Positions 37,356-64,000 of a stretch of DNA of 64,000 nt are shown piece by piece (position 1 is the first letter of the stretch; each line of letters starts with the position of its first letter). The notes under the pieces were generated by a model. It did no database searches. It was given only the letters and a program-made list of their open reading frames with translations, and was not told the DNA's origin. Origin of the DNA: Thermoplasmata archaeon. GTDB lineage: Archaea > Thermoplasmatota > Thermoplasmata > RBG-16-68-12 > JAGMCJ01. Location of the stretch: assembly GCA_046761045.1 (NCBI GenBank), contig JBHIFJ010000007.1:74-64073 (forward strand), given 5' to 3'. A program made the translations under genes and the position numbers.

Positions 37356-40357
<3,002 letters not shown>

Positions 40358-40454
40358 TTCTCCTCCATTCTGAGGGCGTAGATGTAGCTTTTTCCCAGCT
40401 TTTCACAGACCCCCTTTCTGTGGGTTCTAATATCCTTGCCCCGTACAGTAGGTC

Positions 40455-41129
40455 ATGGTCGATCTCACAATGGATGTTCACGAGCCCAAGACAATCGCGA
40501 GGTACTTGGAGGAGTTCAAGGTCCCATTCACCAAGAGAAGGATCACGCCAGGAGATTATGTGGTCGGTGAGGTTGGAATTGAAAGGAAGACGCTTGGTGA
40601 CTTCTTCAACTCGATGGTCACCAGACGACTCTTCGATCAGGTCATCCGCCTGAAGAGCTGCTATCCGACCTCTGTACTCATCGTCGAGGGTGATCTCAGC
40701 GATATTTGTGCCCACAGGAATCCTGCGGCATTCTGGGGAGCATTTCTGGCAATGGTGATGGACGATAATGTGTCAATCCTGTTCTCTCCGAACAAGCTCG
40801 AGACTGCTAGGATTCTTAGGACCTTTTGGCGCAGGCAGGAAAGGGGACCCAACAACTACGGTCTCAGGCACAAGCCAAAGATGCTTACGCTGGAAGAGAG
40901 ACAGGTTTTTCTCATCCAGGGGTTCCCCAATGTTGGTGACACTCTGTCAAGGAGCCTTCTCGAGAAGTTCGGGAGTGTGCGTAGAGTGATGATGGCAAGC
41001 AAAGAGGAGCTGATGGAGGTTCCAAAGATCGGTGAGAAGAAGGCCGAGGTCATGGCGAGGATTCTTGACGGAGAGTACGGCCAGAACCAGTCTGTTGGGC
41101 AACACGATCGGATGGGTTCTCGGGGATGA
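40455..41129 (+). CDS. Short XPF/ERCC4-family nuclease with HhH domain
   Basis: DVHE, GDYVV..GIERKT..DF..S....RLFDQ, LIVEG, and (HhH)2 PNVG..LL.KFGSV..V.KIGEKKA. Confidence 0.9.
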   Translation: MVDLTMDVHEPKTIARYLEEFKVPFTKRRITPGDYVVGEVGIERKTLGDFFNSMVTRRLFDQVIRLKSCYPTSVLIVEGDLSDICAHRNPAAFWGAFLAMVMDDNVSILFSPNKLETARILRTFWRRQERGPNNYGLRHKPKMLTLEERQVFLIQGFPNVGDTLSRSLLEKFGSVRRVMMASKEELMEVPKIGEKKAEVMARILDGEYGQNQSVGQHDRMGSRG

Positions 41130-42216
41130 TTCTCCGGAGTCTCCGCAGTGCTCTCATCTTCTCTCTATTCCCTGCCCTGGATTCTTCGACCCCAGACTTA
41201 AGAAAGTGAATGGATTCGTCCATTGTGCCCCTGTCCACCGGATACGGGACACCGTCCTTTCCGCCAACCGTGAAGGAGAATTTCACTGGGTCCCTCCAGC
41301 TTGGCTCATCACCGTATATTATGTCCGAAACGAGAGCGAGAGCTCGAACAGTGGCTGGTCCGACACCTCTGACTGCAAGCATTTCCTCATAGTTGCCTGG
41401 TTGGAAGTCATAGATCCCTTTCATTGCCTGCCAGTGTATCCTCCTGGGCATCCAGAGAAGTCTGACATCCTCCTTCTCTCCTGTCCACCTCTTCAGCGAA
41501 GTCTGATGGCTTGGCCGGACGGACAGGAGCAGTCTCTGCAGCCTCTTTATCCCATCCTTGGCAAGATCGAGAGACGTCTGTCTGCAGTCCCGGCTGAGGG
41601 CCGAGGTCATATCCAAAGTCATCTGCATCCTTCTGCCCAGAATCGCATCATGGGGCTCTTCGAGCATGTCATCGACGTTTGCATGATACCAGTGATATCT
41701 CCTGGCGTAGCCCCTCACTTCGTCCATCCCCTGCTGCACGACCGCCCAGCTTCCGCTTTCCGTGAAGAATACTACATGATGGTAGAGATGATGATTGTCC
41801 TGGATGGCGACGTTGTCCACCTTTGCAGCCATCTTGCTCGTGTAGACCAAGGCATCTATCTGTCGGGTACCAAGGCCAAGTCCATCACCCAGATTTCGTA
41901 TCTGTTCGGGCGTCTTCCTCGAGGCCCGCCCCTTCCCACCAGCAATTGCCAGGCCGAGATTCTCGTCCTTGAGGGCCTCTTTTAGCGCGCCGCACGTTAC
42001 CGTTGAGACACCTGAGGAATGCCAGTCAAAACCCAAGACACAGGAGAGGGATTGGAACCAAAAGGGGTCCGAGACTCTCTCCAGAAACCTCTCCGGTCCA
42101 TGTTCCAGGCATATGACCTTGATTATGCCCTTCGACAAGTCGACCATTCGTGTGAAGAGCCATCGTGGAGCCTTCCCGCCATGAAGTGGAAGGTCTGCGA
42201 CTCCAGCTATGCTCAC
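41050..42216 (-). CDS. DUF763 family protein
   Basis: G.ADLPLHGGKAP.WLF.RM, DP.WFQ...CVLG.DWHSSG..T, AKVD..A.QD and GGKDG.PYPVDR. Confidence 0.92.
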   Translation of the reverse strand: MSIAGVADLPLHGGKAPRWLFTRMVDLSKGIIKVICLEHGPERFLERVSDPFWFQSLSCVLGFDWHSSGVSTVTCGALKEALKDENLGLAIAGGKGRASRKTPEQIRNLGDGLGLGTRQIDALVYTSKMAAKVDNVAIQDNHHLYHHVVFFTESGSWAVVQQGMDEVRGYARRYHWYHANVDDMLEEPHDAILGRRMQMTLDMTSALSRDCRQTSLDLAKDGIKRLQRLLLSVRPSHQTSLKRWTGEKEDVRLLWMPRRIHWQAMKGIYDFQPGNYEEMLAVRGVGPATVRALALVSDIIYGDEPSWRDPVKFSFTVGGKDGVPYPVDRGTMDESIHFLKSGVEESRAGNREKMRALRRLRRIIPENPSDRVAQQTGSGRTLRQESSP

Positions 42217-42308
42217 ATGAGAGGAAGCGATCCGGTCGGATATAAGCCTCCTAGGTGGGGGTGAGTGAAACAGTGAAATATTTATTCATGACCGCGTATC
42301 CAAACCTT

Positions 42309-44195
42309 GTGCCAGCAGTTCGTCTTGGCAAGATGCATCTCCGGTGGTGCAAACAGTGCAACGTCCCTGTTTTGGAGCAGGGCAGATGTTCCGTGTGCGG
42401 CACACCCACATCTGGTGTCGAGGTCACGCCACCCGGCGACATCAGGCCCGCCTTCGATTCTGATGTCCGTTTGATTAGAGAAACGATCGAAGCGCAGTTC
42501 GGAAGGGGGGCCGGCAAATCCCTGATTCCCGATGATAAGATCGTCCTCCTGAACGGCGTTCCACATTTGGATCGGATGGATGAGATCATTCTGGACGGTC
42601 AGGTTCTGGGTGCCCTGCAGTACAATCCAGGAAGTGGTTACAAGTTCATTCCAAGGATGGAGGCAGCCCGCCGCCTTGCGCCAACTCTTGGAAAGTCCTG
42701 GATAGTCGTCGATAAGGGGGCCGTCAATCCCGTTTCCTCGGGAGCGAGCGTGATGGTTTCTGGCATACTTGACCTCGATGATGGGATTGAGGCGGGCGAT
42801 GAGATTATCGTGGTCACGGAGGAGAGGAAGGTGATTGCCACTGGGTTTGCTAGAATGGGCGGGCCCGAGATGAGGACGAAGCGCCGTGGGGCGGCAACGA
42901 AGACCCGCTGGTCCTCGGAGCCAACCGACGCCGTCTACCTTCCGTCCGGCCAGGACTGGAGACTGGTTCTCGAGGCAAATGAGAACGTTCTGGAAGTGAG
43001 GGTCGACAAGGCGGTGCGCTTCGTGAGGAGGATCGTGCAAGAGATGGGACTTCCCGTGGCTGTCTCCTTCAGCGGTGGAAAGGACAGCCTAGTCACTCTT
43101 CTCCTTGTGGTCGATGCTGGCATTCGTCCTGACATCCTTTTCGTGGACACAGGTCTCGAATTCCCGGAGACCGTGGATCATGTCACACAGATCGCGGGGG
43201 AATACGATCTCCGGCTGATCACAGAATCGGCGGGAGACGCCTTCTGGAGCGGACTGAGGACCTTCGGGCCTCCCGGCAAGGACTTCAGATGGTGTTGCAA
43301 GACATGCAAATTGGGCCCAGCCGCCAGACTCATCTCGAAGAGCTATCCGAATGGCGTCCTTTCTTTCATAGGCCAAAGGAGGTACGAATCCATACCGCGA
43401 TCGACGAAAGGTGCCGTGTGGACGAATCCATGGGTCCCGGGCCAGCATGCCGCCTCTCCAATACAGGACTGGACAGCTCTGCATGTGTGGCTGTACATCT
43501 TCTCCAAAGGCGTGAGCTTCAACCCCTGGTATGAGAGGGGCCTTGCCAGAATCGGTTGCTTCCTCTGTCCCGCCTCGGACCTTGCTGAGCTTGAGATTGT
43601 GTCTGATGAACTGCCTGAGTTTGAGCGGTGGGAGGCCTACTTGGAGGATTACGCTGAGAAGTCGAAGAAGGGAGAAAGCTGGCTCAATCTCGGTCTTTGG
43701 AGGTGGAGAGTCCCGCCCAAAGGGGTCAGTGAGATGACAGAGGCCGAGCGCGGTGGGAGTGTCGCGGCCGACCATCTCAAGTTGCAGGTTTCCGATACTC
43801 ATATTCCGTGCACACTCGGAGTGAGGACCGAGGGCTTCTTCATGGACATGCTGGACATGGACCGCGTTGCCAACATGCTGAGAATCCTCGGCGAAGTGGA
43901 ATATGACGACGAGGTCGAGGCAGCTCAGATGGAGAGATACGTTGTGTTCAAAGAGGGCCTTGTGATAATCAGGGCCGAGGATGAGGATCAACTGGTGTCC
44001 CAGGCGAAGGATCTCGAGCGGGTTATCAGGAAGGCAGAGAATTGCGTTGCGTGCGGAGTCTGTGTTGGCCTTTGCGAGAACGATGCAATCGTGATCAAGG
44101 ACAAGGCTTGGATTGTCGAAGACAATTGCGAGTCGTGCGGAAACTGTCTATACCCGTGTTCAGCGGCAGATTTCGAGGGCGAGTTCAGGTTCTGA
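42309..44195 (+). CDS. PAPS-reductase-family protein with PUA and C-terminal 4Fe-4S domains
   Basis: N-terminal CxxC..CxxC, PUA domain, SFSGGKDS, WCCKTCK, RIGCFLCP and two CxxCxxCxxxC motifs. GTG 42309 preferred (TATA ~25 nt upstream). Confidence 0.88.
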   Translation: MPAVRLGKMHLRWCKQCNVPVLEQGRCSVCGTPTSGVEVTPPGDIRPAFDSDVRLIRETIEAQFGRGAGKSLIPDDKIVLLNGVPHLDRMDEIILDGQVLGALQYNPGSGYKFIPRMEAARRLAPTLGKSWIVVDKGAVNPVSSGASVMVSGILDLDDGIEAGDEIIVVTEERKVIATGFARMGGPEMRTKRRGAATKTRWSSEPTDAVYLPSGQDWRLVLEANENVLEVRVDKAVRFVRRIVQEMGLPVAVSFSGGKDSLVTLLLVVDAGIRPDILFVDTGLEFPETVDHVTQIAGEYDLRLITESAGDAFWSGLRTFGPPGKDFRWCCKTCKLGPAARLISKSYPNGVLSFIGQRRYESIPRSTKGAVWTNPWVPGQHAASPIQDWTALHVWLYIFSKGVSFNPWYERGLARIGCFLCPASDLAELEIVSDELPEFERWEAYLEDYAEKSKKGESWLNLGLWRWRVPPKGVSEMTEAERGGSVAADHLKLQVSDTHIPCTLGVRTEGFFMDMLDMDRVANMLRILGEVEYDDEVEAAQMERYVVFKEGLVIIRAEDEDQLVSQAKDLERVIRKAENCVACGVCVGLCENDAIVIKDKAWIVEDNCESCGNCLYPCSAADFEGEFRF

Positions 44196-61794: not shown

Positions 61795-61904
61795 GTGAGT
61801 CGTCTGTGAATGAGGCAACCTCATAATAACGTTTCTCTCTCGATTTCACGCAAGAGATTGTCGTGTCTGAAAAAATTTTATACCCTCAGGCCCTTCGTGG
61901 CACC

Positions 61905-62699
61905 ATGGGGGAGGCCATAACTACCGATTTTCTCGAGCGGGATAGGTATGACAGAATGAAAAGAATCCCTTGGATAAAGATGGACTCAATCAAAGAGGTT
62001 CAGATCCTAATTGTCGGTGCTGGTGCCCTTGGCAACGAGGTAGTCAAGGATATGATATTAGCGGGTTTCGCGGAAATGAGCCTAGTGGACATGGACCATG
62101 TGGCGAAATCAAATCTCAATCGATGCGTATTCTTCCGTGAAGGAGACTCAGAGAGGAGGCGATTCAAGGCAGAGGTCGTGGCAGAACGTGCGATGGAATT
62201 GAACCCTAGGGCGAAGGTCGCACCTCACACAACCCGAATCCAGGATATGCCGGAGGACTTCATTTCCTGCCATTCGATAGTCCTTGGGTGCCTGGATAAC
62301 GTTGCGGCAAGACTCCATCTGAATGCACACTGCTGTGATGACGGCATTCCATATATCGACGGGGCGATGGATGGTCTGATTGGCAAGGTCCAGGTTGTCT
62401 ATCCTCCAGAGACGCCCTGCCTTCAATGCGCGATGAACAAGACGCATGCAAGAATAATGGATCTCAGGTTCAGCTGTACCGGTGAGGATGTGACGTTCTT
62501 CGAACCGAAGATCGCGGCGGAGATTACCACTACGAGCGTCGTCTCCGCTGTTCAGGTCAGAGAAGCAATGAAGATCGCATCTGGTGCGAAGGCCGCAGTA
62601 CTCCAGAACATCTTCTACTACGACGGCTTCCGGAATGTGGCCGAAACACTGGAGGTTGCGAGAAATCCTGATTGTCCCCATCACGGCAACGAGCGATAG
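61905..62699 (+). CDS. E1-like ubiquitin-activating enzyme (ThiF/MoeB/UBA family)
   Basis: VGAGALG, D.D.V..SNLNR, KAE, CLDN..AR, Zn motifs CLQC and CPHH, candidate catalytic Cys in RFSCTG. TATA AAAATTTTATA ~25 nt before ATG 61905. Confidence 0.92.
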   Translation: MGEAITTDFLERDRYDRMKRIPWIKMDSIKEVQILIVGAGALGNEVVKDMILAGFAEMSLVDMDHVAKSNLNRCVFFREGDSERRRFKAEVVAERAMELNPRAKVAPHTTRIQDMPEDFISCHSIVLGCLDNVAARLHLNAHCCDDGIPYIDGAMDGLIGKVQVVYPPETPCLQCAMNKTHARIMDLRFSCTGEDVTFFEPKIAAEITTTSVVSAVQVREAMKIASGAKAAVLQNIFYYDGFRNVAETLEVARNPDCPHHGNER

Positions 62700-62711
62700 G
62701 TTTGTTCTTCG

Positions 62712-62754
62712 GAAAACCTTTAAGAATGTCTCAGCCAATAACTGCACGGGGGAG
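62712..62754 (+). promoter_or_regulatory. Candidate internal promoter and SD for the Ubl gene
   Basis: GAAAACCTTTAAGA (BRE/TATA-like) and GGGGGAG 5 nt before GTG. Confidence 0.5.
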
Positions 62755-62759
62755 TTCTT

Positions 62760-62999
62760 GTGACGACAAGAATCAGAGTCAAGAACGCTGAGACAGGATC
62801 CTCAGTGGAAATGGAGCTGGAAGCAGAGAACACGGTGGACGAGATAATAGAAAGCGCCGCTAGCTACTGGGAAGTATCTCCAGGTGCCTACGTGCTTCGT
62901 CGCGGGAAGACTGTTCTCCGTGGGCAATCGACGATTGTAGATGCAGAGATCCGTGAGGGTGATGTTGTTGAACTCATACCGGATCCAGAAGGCGGCTAG
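62760..62999 (+). CDS. Ubiquitin-like beta-grasp modifier with free C-terminal GG
   Basis: 79 aa. IRVKNAETGSSVEMELEAENTVDEI...VL...TI.DAEIREGDVVEL follows the ubiquitin pattern. Ends PEGG-stop. Confidence 0.9.
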   Translation: MTTRIRVKNAETGSSVEMELEAENTVDEIIESAASYWEVSPGAYVLRRGKTVLRGQSTIVDAEIREGDVVELIPDPEGG

Positions 63000-63008
63000 G
63001 CGGAGGAC

Positions 63009-63518
63009 ATGGGTCTACCCAAGGACATTCTGAGGTCCAGGGTGAGGAACGAGGTCCTCCTGTGTCAGAGGAGTTTCAGGCACGCCATCTCTGTGTCGGA
63101 TCCCACCCTGGAAACCTTCCCAATGCAGCTCAATGTCACTCTGGTGAAGACACCGGGTCCCATATGGAAGGATGGAAAGGTCCAGCACAGGTACACGCAC
63201 AAGTTGACCATCCTCATAACCGAGGAGTATCCATACGAGAAACCCATCGTCAAGTGGAGATCAGACATCTTCCATCCAAACATCATGCTTCCCGATGATG
63301 GCGGTTATGTGTGTACAAAGCTCCTGGATGATTGGAACTTCAACTCCACTCTACTCACATTCATCAAGGGACTGGAAACCTTGCTGACTAGCCCAAATCC
63401 CGCGAATCCGTTTGGAAGCGATTCCTGCACGCGGGCGGCTCAGCACTTCAACACGCGCGGCTACAATCCCCCCACCCTGATGGAGAGTTCCAAGCCAAAG
63501 CCGAGAGTTCTGGGATGA
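63009..63518 (+). CDS. E2 ubiquitin-conjugating (UBC) enzyme
   Basis: EYPYEKPIVKW..DIFHPNI......GYVCTKLLDDW....TL.....LETLLTSPNPANP, with canonical HPN and catalytic Cys. SD GGAGG. Confidence 0.93.
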   Translation: MGLPKDILRSRVRNEVLLCQRSFRHAISVSDPTLETFPMQLNVTLVKTPGPIWKDGKVQHRYTHKLTILITEEYPYEKPIVKWRSDIFHPNIMLPDDGGYVCTKLLDDWNFNSTLLTFIKGLETLLTSPNPANPFGSDSCTRAAQHFNTRGYNPPTLMESSKPKPRVLG

Positions 63519-63521
63519 CAG

Positions 63522-64000
63522 ATGAATCTTCCTCGTATCGTGAGAGAGAGCAAGAGGGCTCATGAAGAAAGGCCCCCACCTCCGACGGAGCGGACGAGAC
63601 CGCATTACTGGCTGGGAGAGGACAGGCGTAAGGAGATCGAAAGTCTCCTCGTAGGCGGTGGAGTCTTGCCTCTGTATATATCGAAGACCGCAGAGGCCAA
63701 GATGAGGAACCACAGCATTTCGTGTGGCGAAAGGAACCAGGAGGCCATGGGACTCCTGCTTGGTGATGTCTACGTTCACTCCAACGAGACCTATTCCATA
63801 GTTGAGGATGTGGTTACGACTCGTCTGAAGGCTTCGAGAGTTTCGGTGAGTTTCGAGAGGGACGGTCTCGAACAGCTGTTCGGACACCTGGATGATGTCC
63901 ATTTCGATTATGTCATAATCGGTTGGTACCATTCGCATCCGGGATACACGTGTTTCATGTCACCGAAGGACGTTGAGACTCAACGAGCAATGTTCCGGGA
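63522..64000 (+). CDS. JAMM/MPN+ metalloprotease (Rpn11-like deubiquitinase), truncated by window end, absent from the ORF track
   Basis: Translated by hand from ATG 63522: ...LYISKTAEAKMRNH...EAMGLLLG...IIGWYHSHPGYTCFMSPKDVETQRAMFR. Confidence 0.93.
   Translation, partial: MNLPRIVRESKRAHEERPPPPTERTRPHYWLGEDRRKEIESLLVGGGVLPLYISKTAEAKMRNHSISCGERNQEAMGLLLGDVYVHSNETYSIVEDVVTTRLKASRVSVSFERDGLEQLFGHLDDVHFDYVIIGWYHSHPGYTCFMSPKDVETQRAMFR

What the first reader, a model, noticed from the sequence alone, without database searches (positions are those of the whole stretch)
61905..64000. E1-Ubl-E2-JAMM operon: eukaryote-like ubiquitin conjugation system in a probable Thermoplasmata archaeon
Seen: four co-directional, tightly spaced genes encode a ThiF-family E1 (intact ATP site, Zn motifs, candidate thioester Cys), a 79-aa beta-grasp protein ending GG, a UBC-fold E2 with HPN and Cys, and a JAMM protease. 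Established: ordinary archaeal SAMPylation (UbaA/SAMP) uses no E2. E2-containing systems are characterised in Ca. Caldiarchaeum subterraneum and Asgard archaea, and separately in bacterial Bil/Bub-type clusters. Inference: this is a true Ubl conjugation cascade outside the TACK/Asgard lineages. It lies divergent from trpS-pheS with no mobile-element genes nearby, which suggests a housekeeping (proteasomal tagging?) role rather than a defence island. I cannot tell how well it is already documented in this lineage.
Basis: partly seen in the sequence, partly recalled or inferred. Interest (0 to 1): 0.93.

Follow-up and report, generated by a model that had tools for sequence, protein, structure and literature searches.

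The report
Ubiquitin-like tagging operon in Thermoplasmata
A four-gene cluster in a Thermoplasmata archaeon encodes a compact, eukaryote-like protein-tagging kit (activator, ubiquitin-like tag, conjugating enzyme, tag-removing protease) that is widespread and vertically inherited in this class, has been glimpsed before, and has never been tested.

Summary
Window 61863-64000 carries co-directional genes for a ThiF-type E1 (278 aa), a 79-aa ubiquitin-fold protein ending GG, a UBC-fold E2 (HPN + Cys) and an Rpn11/CSN5-like JAMM protease. The JAMM runs 160 nt past the window (212 aa in all).

All catalytic residues are invariant across relatives. The E1-Ubl-E2-JAMM order is kept in many Thermoplasmata families. 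A UQ_con E2 occurs in 141 of 401 class genomes sampled, including the named species Methanomassiliicoccus luminyensis. The operon tree follows genome taxonomy, and the flanks are core genes. That points to an old, vertically inherited, repeatedly lost system, not a defence island or a sulfur carrier.

No E3 lies in the cluster. A dispersed RING-like + zinc-ribbon protein is found almost only in E2-bearing genomes (70 of 73) and is the best E3 candidate.

Databases already name the E2, Fort 2015 flagged the M. luminyensis Rpn11-like protein, and Fuchs 2018 noted 'JAMM-3' operons with Ub/E1/E2. I found no study of this system.

In passing: the same genome carries a UFM1-like/UFC1/UBA5-like/JAB cluster, although papers state that UFM1 and UFC1 are confined to eukaryotes.

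The parts
61863..62699 (+). E1: compact ThiF-type Ubl-activating enzyme, 278 aa from a GTG start (alternative ATG at 61905). It has a single adenylation domain and no separate Cys domain or C-terminal Ubl-fold domain.
   Evidence: Pfam ThiF 5e-50. Best PDB matches are the eukaryotic E1 adenylation domains UBA3 (7.5e-25) and UBA1 (1.2e-24), ahead of MoeB (1.1e-20). All NCBIfam hits, including UbaA (94.6 bits against cut-off 450), are far below their cut-offs. The GxGxxG loop, C186/C189/C271/H274 and crossover-loop Cys205 are invariant in 26 sequences.
62760..62999 (+). Ubl: 79-aa ubiquitin-fold modifier that ends exactly at Gly-Gly.
   Evidence: AlphaFold2 pLDDT 88.4, pTM 0.71, beta-grasp topology. 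Foldseek PDB top hits are SUMO1, ubiquitin (TM 0.88), Hub1, NEDD8 and Caldiarchaeum Ub (TM 0.88). The C-terminal motif IPDPEGG is present in 36 of 36 loci; 22 end at GG and 14 carry 1-11 extra residues.
63009..63518 (+). E2: UBC-fold conjugating enzyme, 169 aa, with the HPN motif and Cys102.
   Evidence: Pfam UQ_con 51.9 bits (cut-off 27). All 60 PDB matches listed, of 258 at E<=1, are eukaryotic E2s; the best is 8.7e-12. H89-P-N91, C102 and W109 are invariant in 36 sequences. It is the only UQ_con gene in the genome.
63522..64000 (+). JAMM/MPN+ metalloprotease, Rpn11/CSN5-like. The window holds the first 159 codons; the full gene is 212 aa and would end at window coordinate 64160.
   Evidence: Pfam JAB 52.2 bits (cut-off 22.5). 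The full length was read from the contig. The PDB hits are only Rpn11 (3.9e-12), CSN5, Caldiarchaeum Rpn11 (3.6e-9), BRCC36 and AMSH (42 of 42). The canonical motif E74...H137-x-H139...S147-x-x-D150 is invariant in 31 sequences. The NCBIfam desampylase model scores only 24.3 bits against a cut-off of 130.

Best explanation
This is a working, chromosomally inherited ubiquitin-like conjugation cascade of a compact archaeal type.

Proposed steps (all inferred, none shown):
1. The E1, probably a homodimer like MoeB or UBA5, adenylates the C-terminal Gly of the 79-aa Ubl. It takes the Ubl onto its crossover-loop Cys205 as a thioester.
2. The Ubl passes to Cys102 of the UBC-fold E2.
3. The E2 transfers it to lysines of target proteins. 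It does so either directly or helped by dispersed RING-like proteins encoded elsewhere in the genome. The best candidate is a RING-like + multi-zinc-ribbon protein (contig C24).
4. The Rpn11-like JAMM protease removes the tag. In relatives whose Ubl carries 1-11 residues after GG, it would also mature the precursor.

Shown here: gene content, folds, conserved catalytic residues, conserved order, distribution and inheritance. Inferred: every chemical step, the targets, and any link to the proteasome.
For: Family assignments:
- All four parts belong to the right families, and the E2 and JAMM score above curated cut-offs.
- Their nearest solved relatives are eukaryotic E1, E2 and Rpn11/CSN5 proteins, and Caldiarchaeum Rpn11.
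- The Ubl folds like ubiquitin/SUMO/NEDD8 and Caldiarchaeum Ub, not like ThiS/MoaD.

Selection on catalysis:
- Every catalytic residue is invariant across families that share only 34-60% identity.
- The Ubl C-terminus IPDPEGG is kept in 36 of 36 loci.

Conserved arrangement:
- Ubl-E2-JAMM are adjacent in 11 of 11 loci from the window's order.
- They are adjacent in 24 of 24 compact-type loci from other families. E1 is detected in 22 of those 24, and is full-length and adjacent in 20.

Distribution and inheritance:
- The E2 family occurs in 141 of 401 class genomes and 50 of 104 genera; controls 0 of 14.
- The concatenated operon tree keeps families f1, f2, f10 and f11 monophyletic. It needs 6 label changes, the minimum, and 0 of 200 shuffles scored as low.
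- The flanks are core genes: tRNA synthetases upstream, and SIS and xylose-isomerase-like TIM-barrel genes downstream. The TIM-barrel gene recurs in 25 and the SIS gene in 20 of 52 loci.

Separate sulfur machinery:
- A MoeB/UbaA-like E1 and two ThiS-family proteins exist elsewhere in the genome.

E3 candidate:
- The full-length RING-like + zinc-ribbon protein occurs in 73 of 401 genomes, 70 of which are E2-positive. It has no match in the 13 named families in which the E2 was not found.
- Two of the three exceptions hold decayed operons.
- In family f30 the Ubl is fused to zinc ribbons + DUF835, the domain that also follows the RING-like finger in this genome's C35 protein.
Against: - No biochemical or expression evidence exists.
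- The E1 has no Cys domain and no C-terminal Ubl-fold domain. How it recruits and charges the E2 is therefore unknown; by recall, single-domain E1s of this size usually serve E2-free pathways, UBA5 being an exception.
- The system is dispensable. It was not found in 260 of 401 class genomes, and it is visibly decaying in a species of the same genus.
- The RING-like domain reaches Pfam's zf-RING_2 cut-off only marginally in the genome scan (26.9, or 27.5 with neighbours, against 27.3). It is below the cut-off in per-protein scans (17.5-21.9 bits in 3 of 6 proteins, no hit in the other 3).
- As a bare domain it also occurs in 91 of 260 E2-negative genomes.
- The RING-like + zinc-ribbon protein was detected in only 70 of 141 E2-positive genomes at the threshold used.
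Confidence: 0.72

Rival explanations
1. The cascade is real but needs no E3. As proposed for bacterial Bil systems, the E2 recognises targets itself, or mostly auto-modifies. The RING-like proteins would then be unrelated zinc fingers.
For: No E3 gene lies in or travels with the cluster. The bare RING-like domain occurs in 91 of 260 E2-negative genomes, and the ~1,500-aa coiled-coil RING-like protein is common in E2-free families. The RING-like + zinc-ribbon protein was detected in only 70 of 141 E2-positive genomes. Passages of the Bub preprint say Bil operons encode no E3 and that their E2s are proposed to recognise targets directly.
Against: 70 of 73 genomes with the RING-like + zinc-ribbon protein are E2-positive, with none in the 13 named E2-free families. 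Within family f29, exactly the two E2-positive genomes have it. The f30 fusion of zinc ribbons and DUF835 to the Ubl links these protein types to the pathway.
Confidence: 0.3
2. It is an anti-virus defence system of the Bil/CBASS-Cap2 kind that conjugates the Ubl to viral proteins.
For: The gene content (E1, E2, Ubl, JAB) matches Bil operons as the passages describe them. The E1 and JAMM give weak PADLOC hits to CBASS E1-E2 (1.1e-11) and JAB (4.2e-6) models. The distribution is patchy.
Against: The E2 and Ubl have no PADLOC hit. The context is core genes, kept across distant families. The operon tree tracks taxonomy, and several families are near-universal carriers, e.g. f10 32 of 33 and f27 14 of 14. 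The E1 has a single 278-aa domain, not the multi-domain Bil E1 described. The JAMM is Rpn11/CSN5-like. PADLOC v2 (2023) may hold no Bil models, so its silence is weak evidence.
Confidence: 0.07
3. It is only a sulfur-carrier or SAMP-like system. The Ubl would be thiocarboxylated for cofactor or tRNA thiolation, and the 'E2' would be an inactive UEV-like partner.
For: The E1 is MoeB-sized and matches MoeB, ThiF and UbaA models at E 1e-27 to 1e-32, all below their cut-offs. The Ubl has weak ThiS and MoaD hits.
Against: The E2 Cys102 and HPN motif are invariant in 36 sequences. The Ubl fold matches Ub/SUMO/NEDD8. The genome has a separate, much better-scoring MoeB/UbaA-like E1 (312 and 214 bits against 104 and 95) and two ThiS-family proteins. 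The protease is Rpn11-like, not a JAMM1 desampylase.
Confidence: 0.04

Closest known systems
Caldiarchaeum subterraneum Ub / E1 / E2 / small RING finger / Rpn11 system (Hennell James 2017 and Fuchs 2018, passages and one section read; Nunoura 2011, search listing and abstract only)
   Same: It has a ubiquitin-fold modifier with a GG end, a ThiF E1, a UBC E2 with HPN and Cys, and an Rpn11-like JAMM, in an archaeon and in operon form. The JAMM matches CsRpn11 at 3.6e-9, and the Ubl model matches CsUb at TM 0.88. Some relatives' Ubls carry a C-terminal tail that would need cleavage, as CsUb does.
   Different: No RING gene lies in the cluster. The E1 is 278 aa and ends right after its zinc site, so there is no room for the C-terminal Ubl-like domain that paper identifies in E1-like proteins. 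Here the JAMM is the last gene of the operon; there it sits beside the operon on the opposite strand. A larger form in Thermoplasmata family f9 (E1 440 aa) looks closer to that type.
'JAMM-3' prokaryotic operons (Fuchs et al. [quoted passage not shown]
   Same: [quoted passage not shown] This locus fits each point.
   Different: The text names no taxa or sequences. The figure is not held and the supplements are closed, so I cannot confirm that this family is JAMM-3. 'JAMM-3' occurs in no other paper of the library.
Bacterial Bil (BilABCD) Ubl-conjugation defence operons
   Same: Separate E1, E2, Ubl and JAB genes, and no E3 in the operon.
   Different: The Bil E1 is multi-domain (IAD-AAD-CYS); here it is a single domain. 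Bil is a phage-defence system; here the context is core genome and the inheritance vertical. There is no PADLOC hit for the E2 or Ubl.
Haloferax SAMP / UbaA / JAMM1 sampylation
   Same: An archaeal Ubl activated by a compact ThiF E1 and removed by a JAMM protease.
   Different: By established knowledge, sampylation uses no E2. Here an E2 with a conserved Cys is always present. The UbaA and desampylase models score far below their cut-offs (94.6 against 450; 24.3 against 130). The Ubl fold is Ub/SUMO-like.
Eukaryotic NEDD8/ubiquitin pathway parts (UBA3, canonical E2s, Rpn11/CSN5)
   Same: These are the best sequence matches for the E1, E2 and JAMM.
   Different: No heterodimeric or duplicated E1, no Cys or UFD domains, a single E2, and no PCI-complex partners were looked for or seen.

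Membership tests
Eukaryote-type archaeal ubiquitylation operon (Caldiarchaeum/Asgard type) | Ubiquitin-fold modifier with a C-terminal Gly-Gly | tested here: met
   Model pLDDT 88.4. The top structural matches are Ub/SUMO/NEDD8/CsUb. GG is kept in 36 of 36 loci.
Eukaryote-type archaeal ubiquitylation operon (Caldiarchaeum/Asgard type) | UBC-fold E2 with HPN and a catalytic Cys | tested here: met
   UQ_con 51.9 bits, above the cut-off of 27. HPN and C102 are invariant in 36 sequences.
Eukaryote-type archaeal ubiquitylation operon (Caldiarchaeum/Asgard type) | E1 with an adenylation domain and a C-terminal Ubl-like domain | tested here: not met
   The adenylation domain is present. The protein ends 4 residues after the last zinc ligand, H274 of 278, so there is no C-terminal domain.
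Eukaryote-type archaeal ubiquitylation operon (Caldiarchaeum/Asgard type) | Small RING-finger E3 encoded in the operon | tested here: not met
   The next two genes are an SIS-domain gene and a TIM-barrel gene on the opposite strand. No RING gene recurs in the neighbourhood in 52 loci. RING-like proteins are dispersed elsewhere in the genome.
Eukaryote-type archaeal ubiquitylation operon (Caldiarchaeum/Asgard type) | Rpn11-like JAMM protease | tested here: met
   PDB hits are only Rpn11, CSN5, CsRpn11, BRCC36 and AMSH. The JAMM motif is invariant.
Eukaryote-type archaeal ubiquitylation operon (Caldiarchaeum/Asgard type) | ATP-dependent E1~Ub and E2~Ub thioesters and substrate isopeptides | not testable with these tools
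   Needs biochemistry.
'JAMM-3' Ub/E1/E2 operons (Fuchs 2018) | JAMM nearer to Rpn11/CSN5 than to JAMM-1/-2, in an operon with Ub, E1 and E2, without an E3 | tested here: met
   (desampylase model 24.3 bits against cut-off 130). Whether the authors' cluster holds these sequences could not be checked, because the figure and supplements were not available.
SAMP/UbaA sampylation | UbaA-type E1, a ThiS/MoaD-type modifier and no E2 | tested here: not met
   UbaA model 94.6 bits against cut-off 450. The modifier fold is Ub/SUMO-like. An E2 is present and conserved.
Bacterial Bil defence operon | Multi-domain E1 (IAD-AAD-CYS) and a defence role or context | tested here: not met
   The E1 is a single 278-aa domain. 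The context is core genome and the inheritance vertical. The defence role itself was not tested.
Bacterial Bub operon | Catalytic Ser (E2) and Tyr (E1) instead of Cys, and a DUF6527 BubE protease | tested here: not met
   E2 Cys102 and E1 Cys205 are invariant. PF20137 has no match in this 95%-complete genome.

The most novel reading that the evidence does not exclude
Thermoplasmata run two parallel eukaryote-type E1-E2 tagging pathways.

1. The compact ubiquitin-like cascade described here. Its E3s would be a dispersed, diversified set of RING-like proteins fused to zinc ribbons, DUF835, membrane anchors and an ABC ATPase. That would be a eukaryote-style 'one E2, many E3s' logic outside Asgard/TACK.
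2. A UFM1-like / UFC1 / UBA5-like cluster, with a JAB protease in the place of UFSP.

If both work, multi-pathway Ubl signalling and the core of UFMylation existed in, or passed through, non-Asgard archaea. The literature read here treats UFM1 and UFC1 as eukaryote-only.
Probability: 0.3. Interest if true: 0.85.

Novelty: new variant of a known kind. Interest (0 to 1): 0.62.

Why it matters
E2-dependent ubiquitylation in archaea has so far been reconstituted only from uncultured Caldiarchaeum. This compact variant is common in one whole archaeal class: 141 of 401 genomes sampled. It also occurs in Methanomassiliicoccus luminyensis, which by recall is a cultured methanogen, so conjugates, targets and phenotypes could be studied in living cells.

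Its minimal parts, a single-domain E1 and no operon-encoded E3, bear on how E1-to-E2 hand-off and E3 dependence arose. The co-occurring RING-like + zinc-ribbon protein gives a concrete E3 hypothesis.

The neighbouring discovery of a UFM1/UFC1/UBA5-like cluster would, if confirmed, revise the stated eukaryote-only origin of the UFMylation core.

Tried and rejected
E2 with RING-like domain complex. I sent alignments A1 and A2; the first row of A2 is the C35 finger, not the C24-type protein. The result was no verdict (score 0.29, mark 0.32), which is evidence neither way.

Expression. No RNA holder was listed for window 61863-64000.

Tree against Asgard/Aigarchaeota/eukaryote/Bil homologs. Not done, because I could not obtain named outgroups.
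- The search of protein representatives was not accepting jobs.
- A word-based search with the f9-type E2 returned only 20 hits, none named as Asgard or Aigarchaeota.

Bare RING-like domain as an E3 marker. Rejected as a strict marker. It occurs in 37 of 41 relatives, including families where the E2 was not found, and in 91 of 260 E2-negative class genomes.

Defence reading. PADLOC gave no hit for the E2 or Ubl, and only weak CBASS-type hits for the E1 and JAMM.

UFM1 likeness of the C6 small protein by sequence. There was no Pfam or PDB hit for the single sequence, and a profile hit to UFM1 only at E=0.85. The case rests on the fold and the neighbouring genes.

Literature.
- Searches for a description of this system in Thermoplasmata or Methanomassiliicoccales. 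For UFC1 in archaea. None returned a paper that describes the Thermoplasmata operon.
- Supplements are closed and figures are not held. Supplementary Fig. 1 of Hennell James 2017 ('Cluster III') and Fig. 1 of Fuchs 2018 may list these lineages.

Rows dropped.
- Tree: 30 of 36 loci were used. L109 was dropped because it comes from the same genome as L009. L086, L090, L091, L096 and L106 were dropped because the JAMM was cut or of atypical length (190-300 aa was required).
- Residue conservation: E1 sequences outside 250-310 aa and JAMM sequences outside 190-300 aa were left out, giving n = 26 and 31. The 36 loci come from 35 genomes.
Full report
WHAT IS THERE

The window is G000 contig C7, bases 74-64073, in a 2.08-Mb, 95%-complete assembly. 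At its 3' end lie four co-directional ORFs separated by 60, 9 and 3 nt:
- E1, 61863-62699
- Ubl, 62760-62999
- E2, 63009-63518
- JAMM, from 63522

The contig runs 1,842 nt past the window. There the JAMM gene is complete at 212 aa. It is followed on the opposite strand by an SIS-domain gene and a xylose-isomerase-like TIM-barrel gene. The cluster therefore has four genes, and no RING E3 lies downstream.

FAMILY ASSIGNMENT

Pfam gives:
- ThiF, 5e-50
- UQ_con, 51.9 bits (cut-off 27)
- JAB, 52.2 bits (cut-off 22.5)

The nearest solved relatives are eukaryotic.
- The E1 matches UBA3 (7.5e-25) and UBA1 (1.2e-24), ahead of MoeB (1.1e-20).
- All 60 E2 matches listed, of 258 at E<=1, are eukaryotic E2s.
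- The JAMM has 42 hits: Rpn11, CSN5, Caldiarchaeum Rpn11, BRCC36 and AMSH.
- Entry 5lda holds, by recall, the Pyrococcus JAMM1, and its SAMP2 chain appeared. It is not among the 42 JAMM hits.
- NCBIfam's UbaA and desampylase models score far below their cut-offs (94.6 against 450; 24.3 against 130).

The Ubl is weak by sequence; every Pfam hit is below its cut-off. With a 20-sequence alignment it folds confidently (pLDDT 88.4). Its best structural matches are SUMO1, ubiquitin (TM 0.88), Hub1, NEDD8 and Caldiarchaeum ubiquitin (TM 0.88).

CATALYTIC RESIDUES

I extracted the four proteins from 36 loci in 35 genomes. The following residues are invariant:
- E1 (26 sequences): the GxGxxG loop, Zn ligands C186/C189/C271/H274, and Cys205 in the short crossover loop (motif RFSCTG).
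- E2 (36 sequences): H89-P-N91, Cys102 and W109.
- JAMM (31 sequences): E74, H137, H139, S147 and D150, with canonical spacing.

The Ubl ends in IPDPEGG in 36 of 36 loci. Of these, 22 stop at GG and 14 carry 1-11 further residues, which implies C-terminal processing in those lineages.

DISTRIBUTION AND INHERITANCE

- The closest named records are titled Thermoplasmata, Thermoplasmatota, Methanomassiliicoccales or Methanomethylophilaceae (52 loci).
- In the window's own order the E2 was found in 13 of 79 genomes: f1 5 of 7 plus the window's own genome, f2 6 of 6, f5 1 of 1. It was not found in f3, f4, f6 or f7 (0 of 2, 44, 4 and 14).
- Across the class, 141 of 401 genomes at least 80% complete have a UQ_con match above Pfam's cut-off. 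That is 50 of 104 genera, and 0 of 14 control genomes.
- Ubl-E2-JAMM are adjacent in 11 of 11 loci from the window's order and in 24 of 24 compact-type loci from other families. E1 is detected in 22 of those 24 (20 full-length and adjacent, 2 cut by the locus edge) and not in the 2 loci of family f30.
- A concatenated E2+JAMM+E1 tree of 30 loci keeps families f1, f2, f10 and f11 each monophyletic. It needs 6 label changes, the minimum, and 0 of 200 shuffles scored as low. It joins f1 with f2, both from the window's order (SH-aLRT 83).
- The downstream TIM-barrel and SIS genes recur in 25 and 20 of 52 loci, many of which are short contigs.
- Losses can be seen in progress. In G001, a species of the same genus, the Ubl is intact, but only 20 residues of E1 remain, the E2 is gone and the JAMM is truncated with a stop. 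G194 keeps only a 65-residue JAMM fragment.

Together this describes an old chromosomal trait with repeated loss, not a mobile island.

RIVALS

Sulfur carrier. The genome has a separate E1 on contig C3 that scores 312 and 214 bits on the MoeB/ThiF and UbaA models, against 104 and 95 for the window's E1. It also has two ThiS-family proteins above Pfam's cut-off.

Defence. PADLOC has no hit for the E2 or Ubl. The Bub hallmark DUF6527 was not found. The Bil E1 is multi-domain by the passages read, unlike this one.

THE E3 QUESTION

The genome holds six matches to zf-RING_2. The best scores 26.9 bits, or 27.5 with neighbours, against a cut-off of 27.3; 0 of 14 control genomes exceed the cut-off. 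All six share an invariant C4-H-C3 pattern and sit in very different proteins:
- a membrane protein with DUF835
- a clostripain-like exoprotein
- an exosortase-like membrane protein
- a 1,496-aa coiled-coil protein
- an ABC ATPase
- a 300-aa protein (contig C24) with several zinc ribbons

In per-protein Pfam scans the finger is below the cut-off, so 'RING-like' is the honest name.

The bare domain does not track the E2. It occurs in 135 of 141 E2-positive genomes but also in 91 of 260 E2-negative ones.

The C24-type architecture is different. A RING-like finger followed by 4-6 CPxCG ribbons is shared with proteins from families f10, f27, f31 and f33. A full-length profile at E<=1e-25 gives this pattern:
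- It finds the protein in 73 of 401 genomes, and 70 of those are E2-positive.
- It has no match in the 13 named families in which the E2 was not found.
- In f29, exactly the two E2-positive genomes have it.
- Two of the three exceptions are the decayed loci above.
- The reverse does not hold: only 70 of 141 E2-positive genomes have it at this threshold.

Relatives are not independent, so this is a lead and not a statistic.

A further link is a fusion. In both f30 genomes the Ubl is the C-terminal end of a 377-395-aa frame carrying double zinc ribbons and DUF835. DUF835 also follows the RING-like finger in the C35 protein.

WHAT IS ALREADY KNOWN

- NCBI and JGI name these proteins ubiquitin-conjugating enzyme or ubiquitin-protein ligase, including in Methanomassiliicoccus luminyensis. 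That protein (P0181) is 53% identical to the window's E2.
- Fort et al. 2015 (passages) found that the only archaeal proteins resembling Rpn11 were one from M. luminyensis and one from Caldiarchaeum. Both branched with eukaryotic MPN proteins.
- Fuchs et al. 2018 (one section read whole) describe 'JAMM-3': it is nearer to Rpn11/CSN5 and found in operons with Ub, E1 and E2 homologs. The text names no taxa.
- Grau-Bove 2015 (passages) reported only an incomplete toolkit in one marine group II euryarchaeote.
- My searches found no paper that describes the Thermoplasmata operon, its spread, or a candidate E3. Supplements and figures that might list it were not available.

MECHANISM PROPOSED

The E1 adenylates the Ubl C-terminal Gly and carries it on Cys205. 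The Ubl passes to E2 Cys102 and then to target lysines, possibly aided by the RING-like + zinc-ribbon protein. The JAMM trims precursors and reverses the conjugation. All of these steps are inferred.

How a 278-aa E1 without a Ubl-fold domain recruits the E2 is open.

SEEN IN PASSING

Contig C6 carries a second E2 system. Its four genes are:
- an 81-aa protein ending VG
- a UFC1-family E2 (49.3 bits, cut-off 25; all 26 PDB hits are UFC1)
- a UBA5-like E1 (3.4e-47 to UBA5 against 1e-31 to MoeB)
- a 349-aa JAB protein

The small protein folds at pLDDT 90.5. The 12 highest rows of its fold search are all UFM1, or UFM1 orthologues by recall, at TM 0.81-0.86. SUMO and ubiquitin follow at about 0.67-0.70.

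UFC1 matches occur in 24 of 401 class genomes. The gene order is kept in 14 of 14 loci, with the JAB in 13.

Picchianti 2023 and Grau-Bove 2015 (passages) state that UFM1 and UFC1 are not found outside eukaryotes.

Family f9 carries a distinct, larger UQ_con system with a 440-aa E1 and up to 4 E2 matches per genome.

LIMITS

- There is no biochemistry and no expression data.
- There is no outgroup phylogeny.
- Family labels are coded handles.
- Counts come from samples of incomplete genomes.

Noticed in passing
Outside the window: G000 contig C6, bases 40041-42522 (L116:1542-4023): A second E2 system in the same genome. It consists of an 81-aa UFM1-fold protein ending VG, a UFC1-family E2 (Pfam 49.3 bits against cut-off 25), a UBA5-like E1 (3.4e-47 to UBA5) and a 349-aa JAB protease. 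UFC1 occurs in 24 of 401 class genomes, and the gene order is kept in 14 of 14 loci. Papers read in part state that UFM1 and UFC1 are eukaryote-only.
   Followed up: yes
Outside the window: G000 C24:27864-28766 (L111), with relatives in L131, L132 and L134-L139: A 300-aa protein with an N-terminal C4HC3 RING-like finger and several CPxCG zinc ribbons. The same architecture is found in families f10, f27, f31 and f33. It is present in 73 of 401 class genomes, 70 of them E2-positive. It is the best E3 candidate.
   Followed up: yes
Outside the window: G000 C35:7747-10083, C14:19750-21837, C4:65984-67195, C4:10530-15020, C3:22587-23792: Five more proteins carry the same RING-like finger. The partners are a DUF835 membrane protein, a clostripain-like exoprotein, an exosortase-like membrane protein, a 1,496-aa coiled-coil protein and an oligopeptide-type ABC ATPase. 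The coiled-coil one is widespread even where no E2 was found.
   Followed up: partly
L086:1905-3089 (-) and L090:166-1296 (+), family f30: The Ubl is the C-terminal end of a 377-395-aa open frame with double zinc ribbons and a DUF835 domain. No E1 lies within 1.5 kb, and the JAMM frame there exceeds 466 aa.
   Followed up: partly
L080-L085 (family f9 and G157); detail in L084:324-3344: A distinct 'large' UQ_con system within the same class: E1 of 440 aa with an insertion and a C-terminal extension, E2 of 178 aa (72-84 bits), and a JAMM of 401 aa with a Lys/Glu-rich N-terminus and a C-terminal zinc ribbon. There are up to 4 E2 matches per genome.
   Followed up: partly
L140 (G001:C39:59610-63011) and L141 (G194:C1:1559521-1562721): Decaying copies of the operon. 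In G001 the Ubl is intact, but E1 is reduced to 20 residues, the E2 is deleted and the JAMM is truncated with an in-frame TAA. G194 keeps only a 65-residue JAMM fragment.
   Followed up: yes
L009:282-1109 and L011:282-1163 (family f2): A 275-293-aa gene on the opposite strand, with squalene-hopene-cyclase-type repeats, sits between the E1 and the Ubl in family f2. The Ubl there ends GGH or GGQ.
   Followed up: partly
G084, G114, G138, G175 (family f13); rows: The RING-like + zinc-ribbon matches in these four genomes each contain one in-frame TGA or TAG. I did not examine whether this reflects decay, recoding or a sequencing error.
   Followed up: no
L058, L059, L061, L066: Four records titled as bacteria (Eggerthellaceae twice, Anaerovoracaceae, Bacteroides salyersiae) carry this archaeal-type E2 at 39-42% identity, similar to the values for Methanomethylophilaceae records. 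They are probably mislabelled or mixed bins.
   Followed up: no
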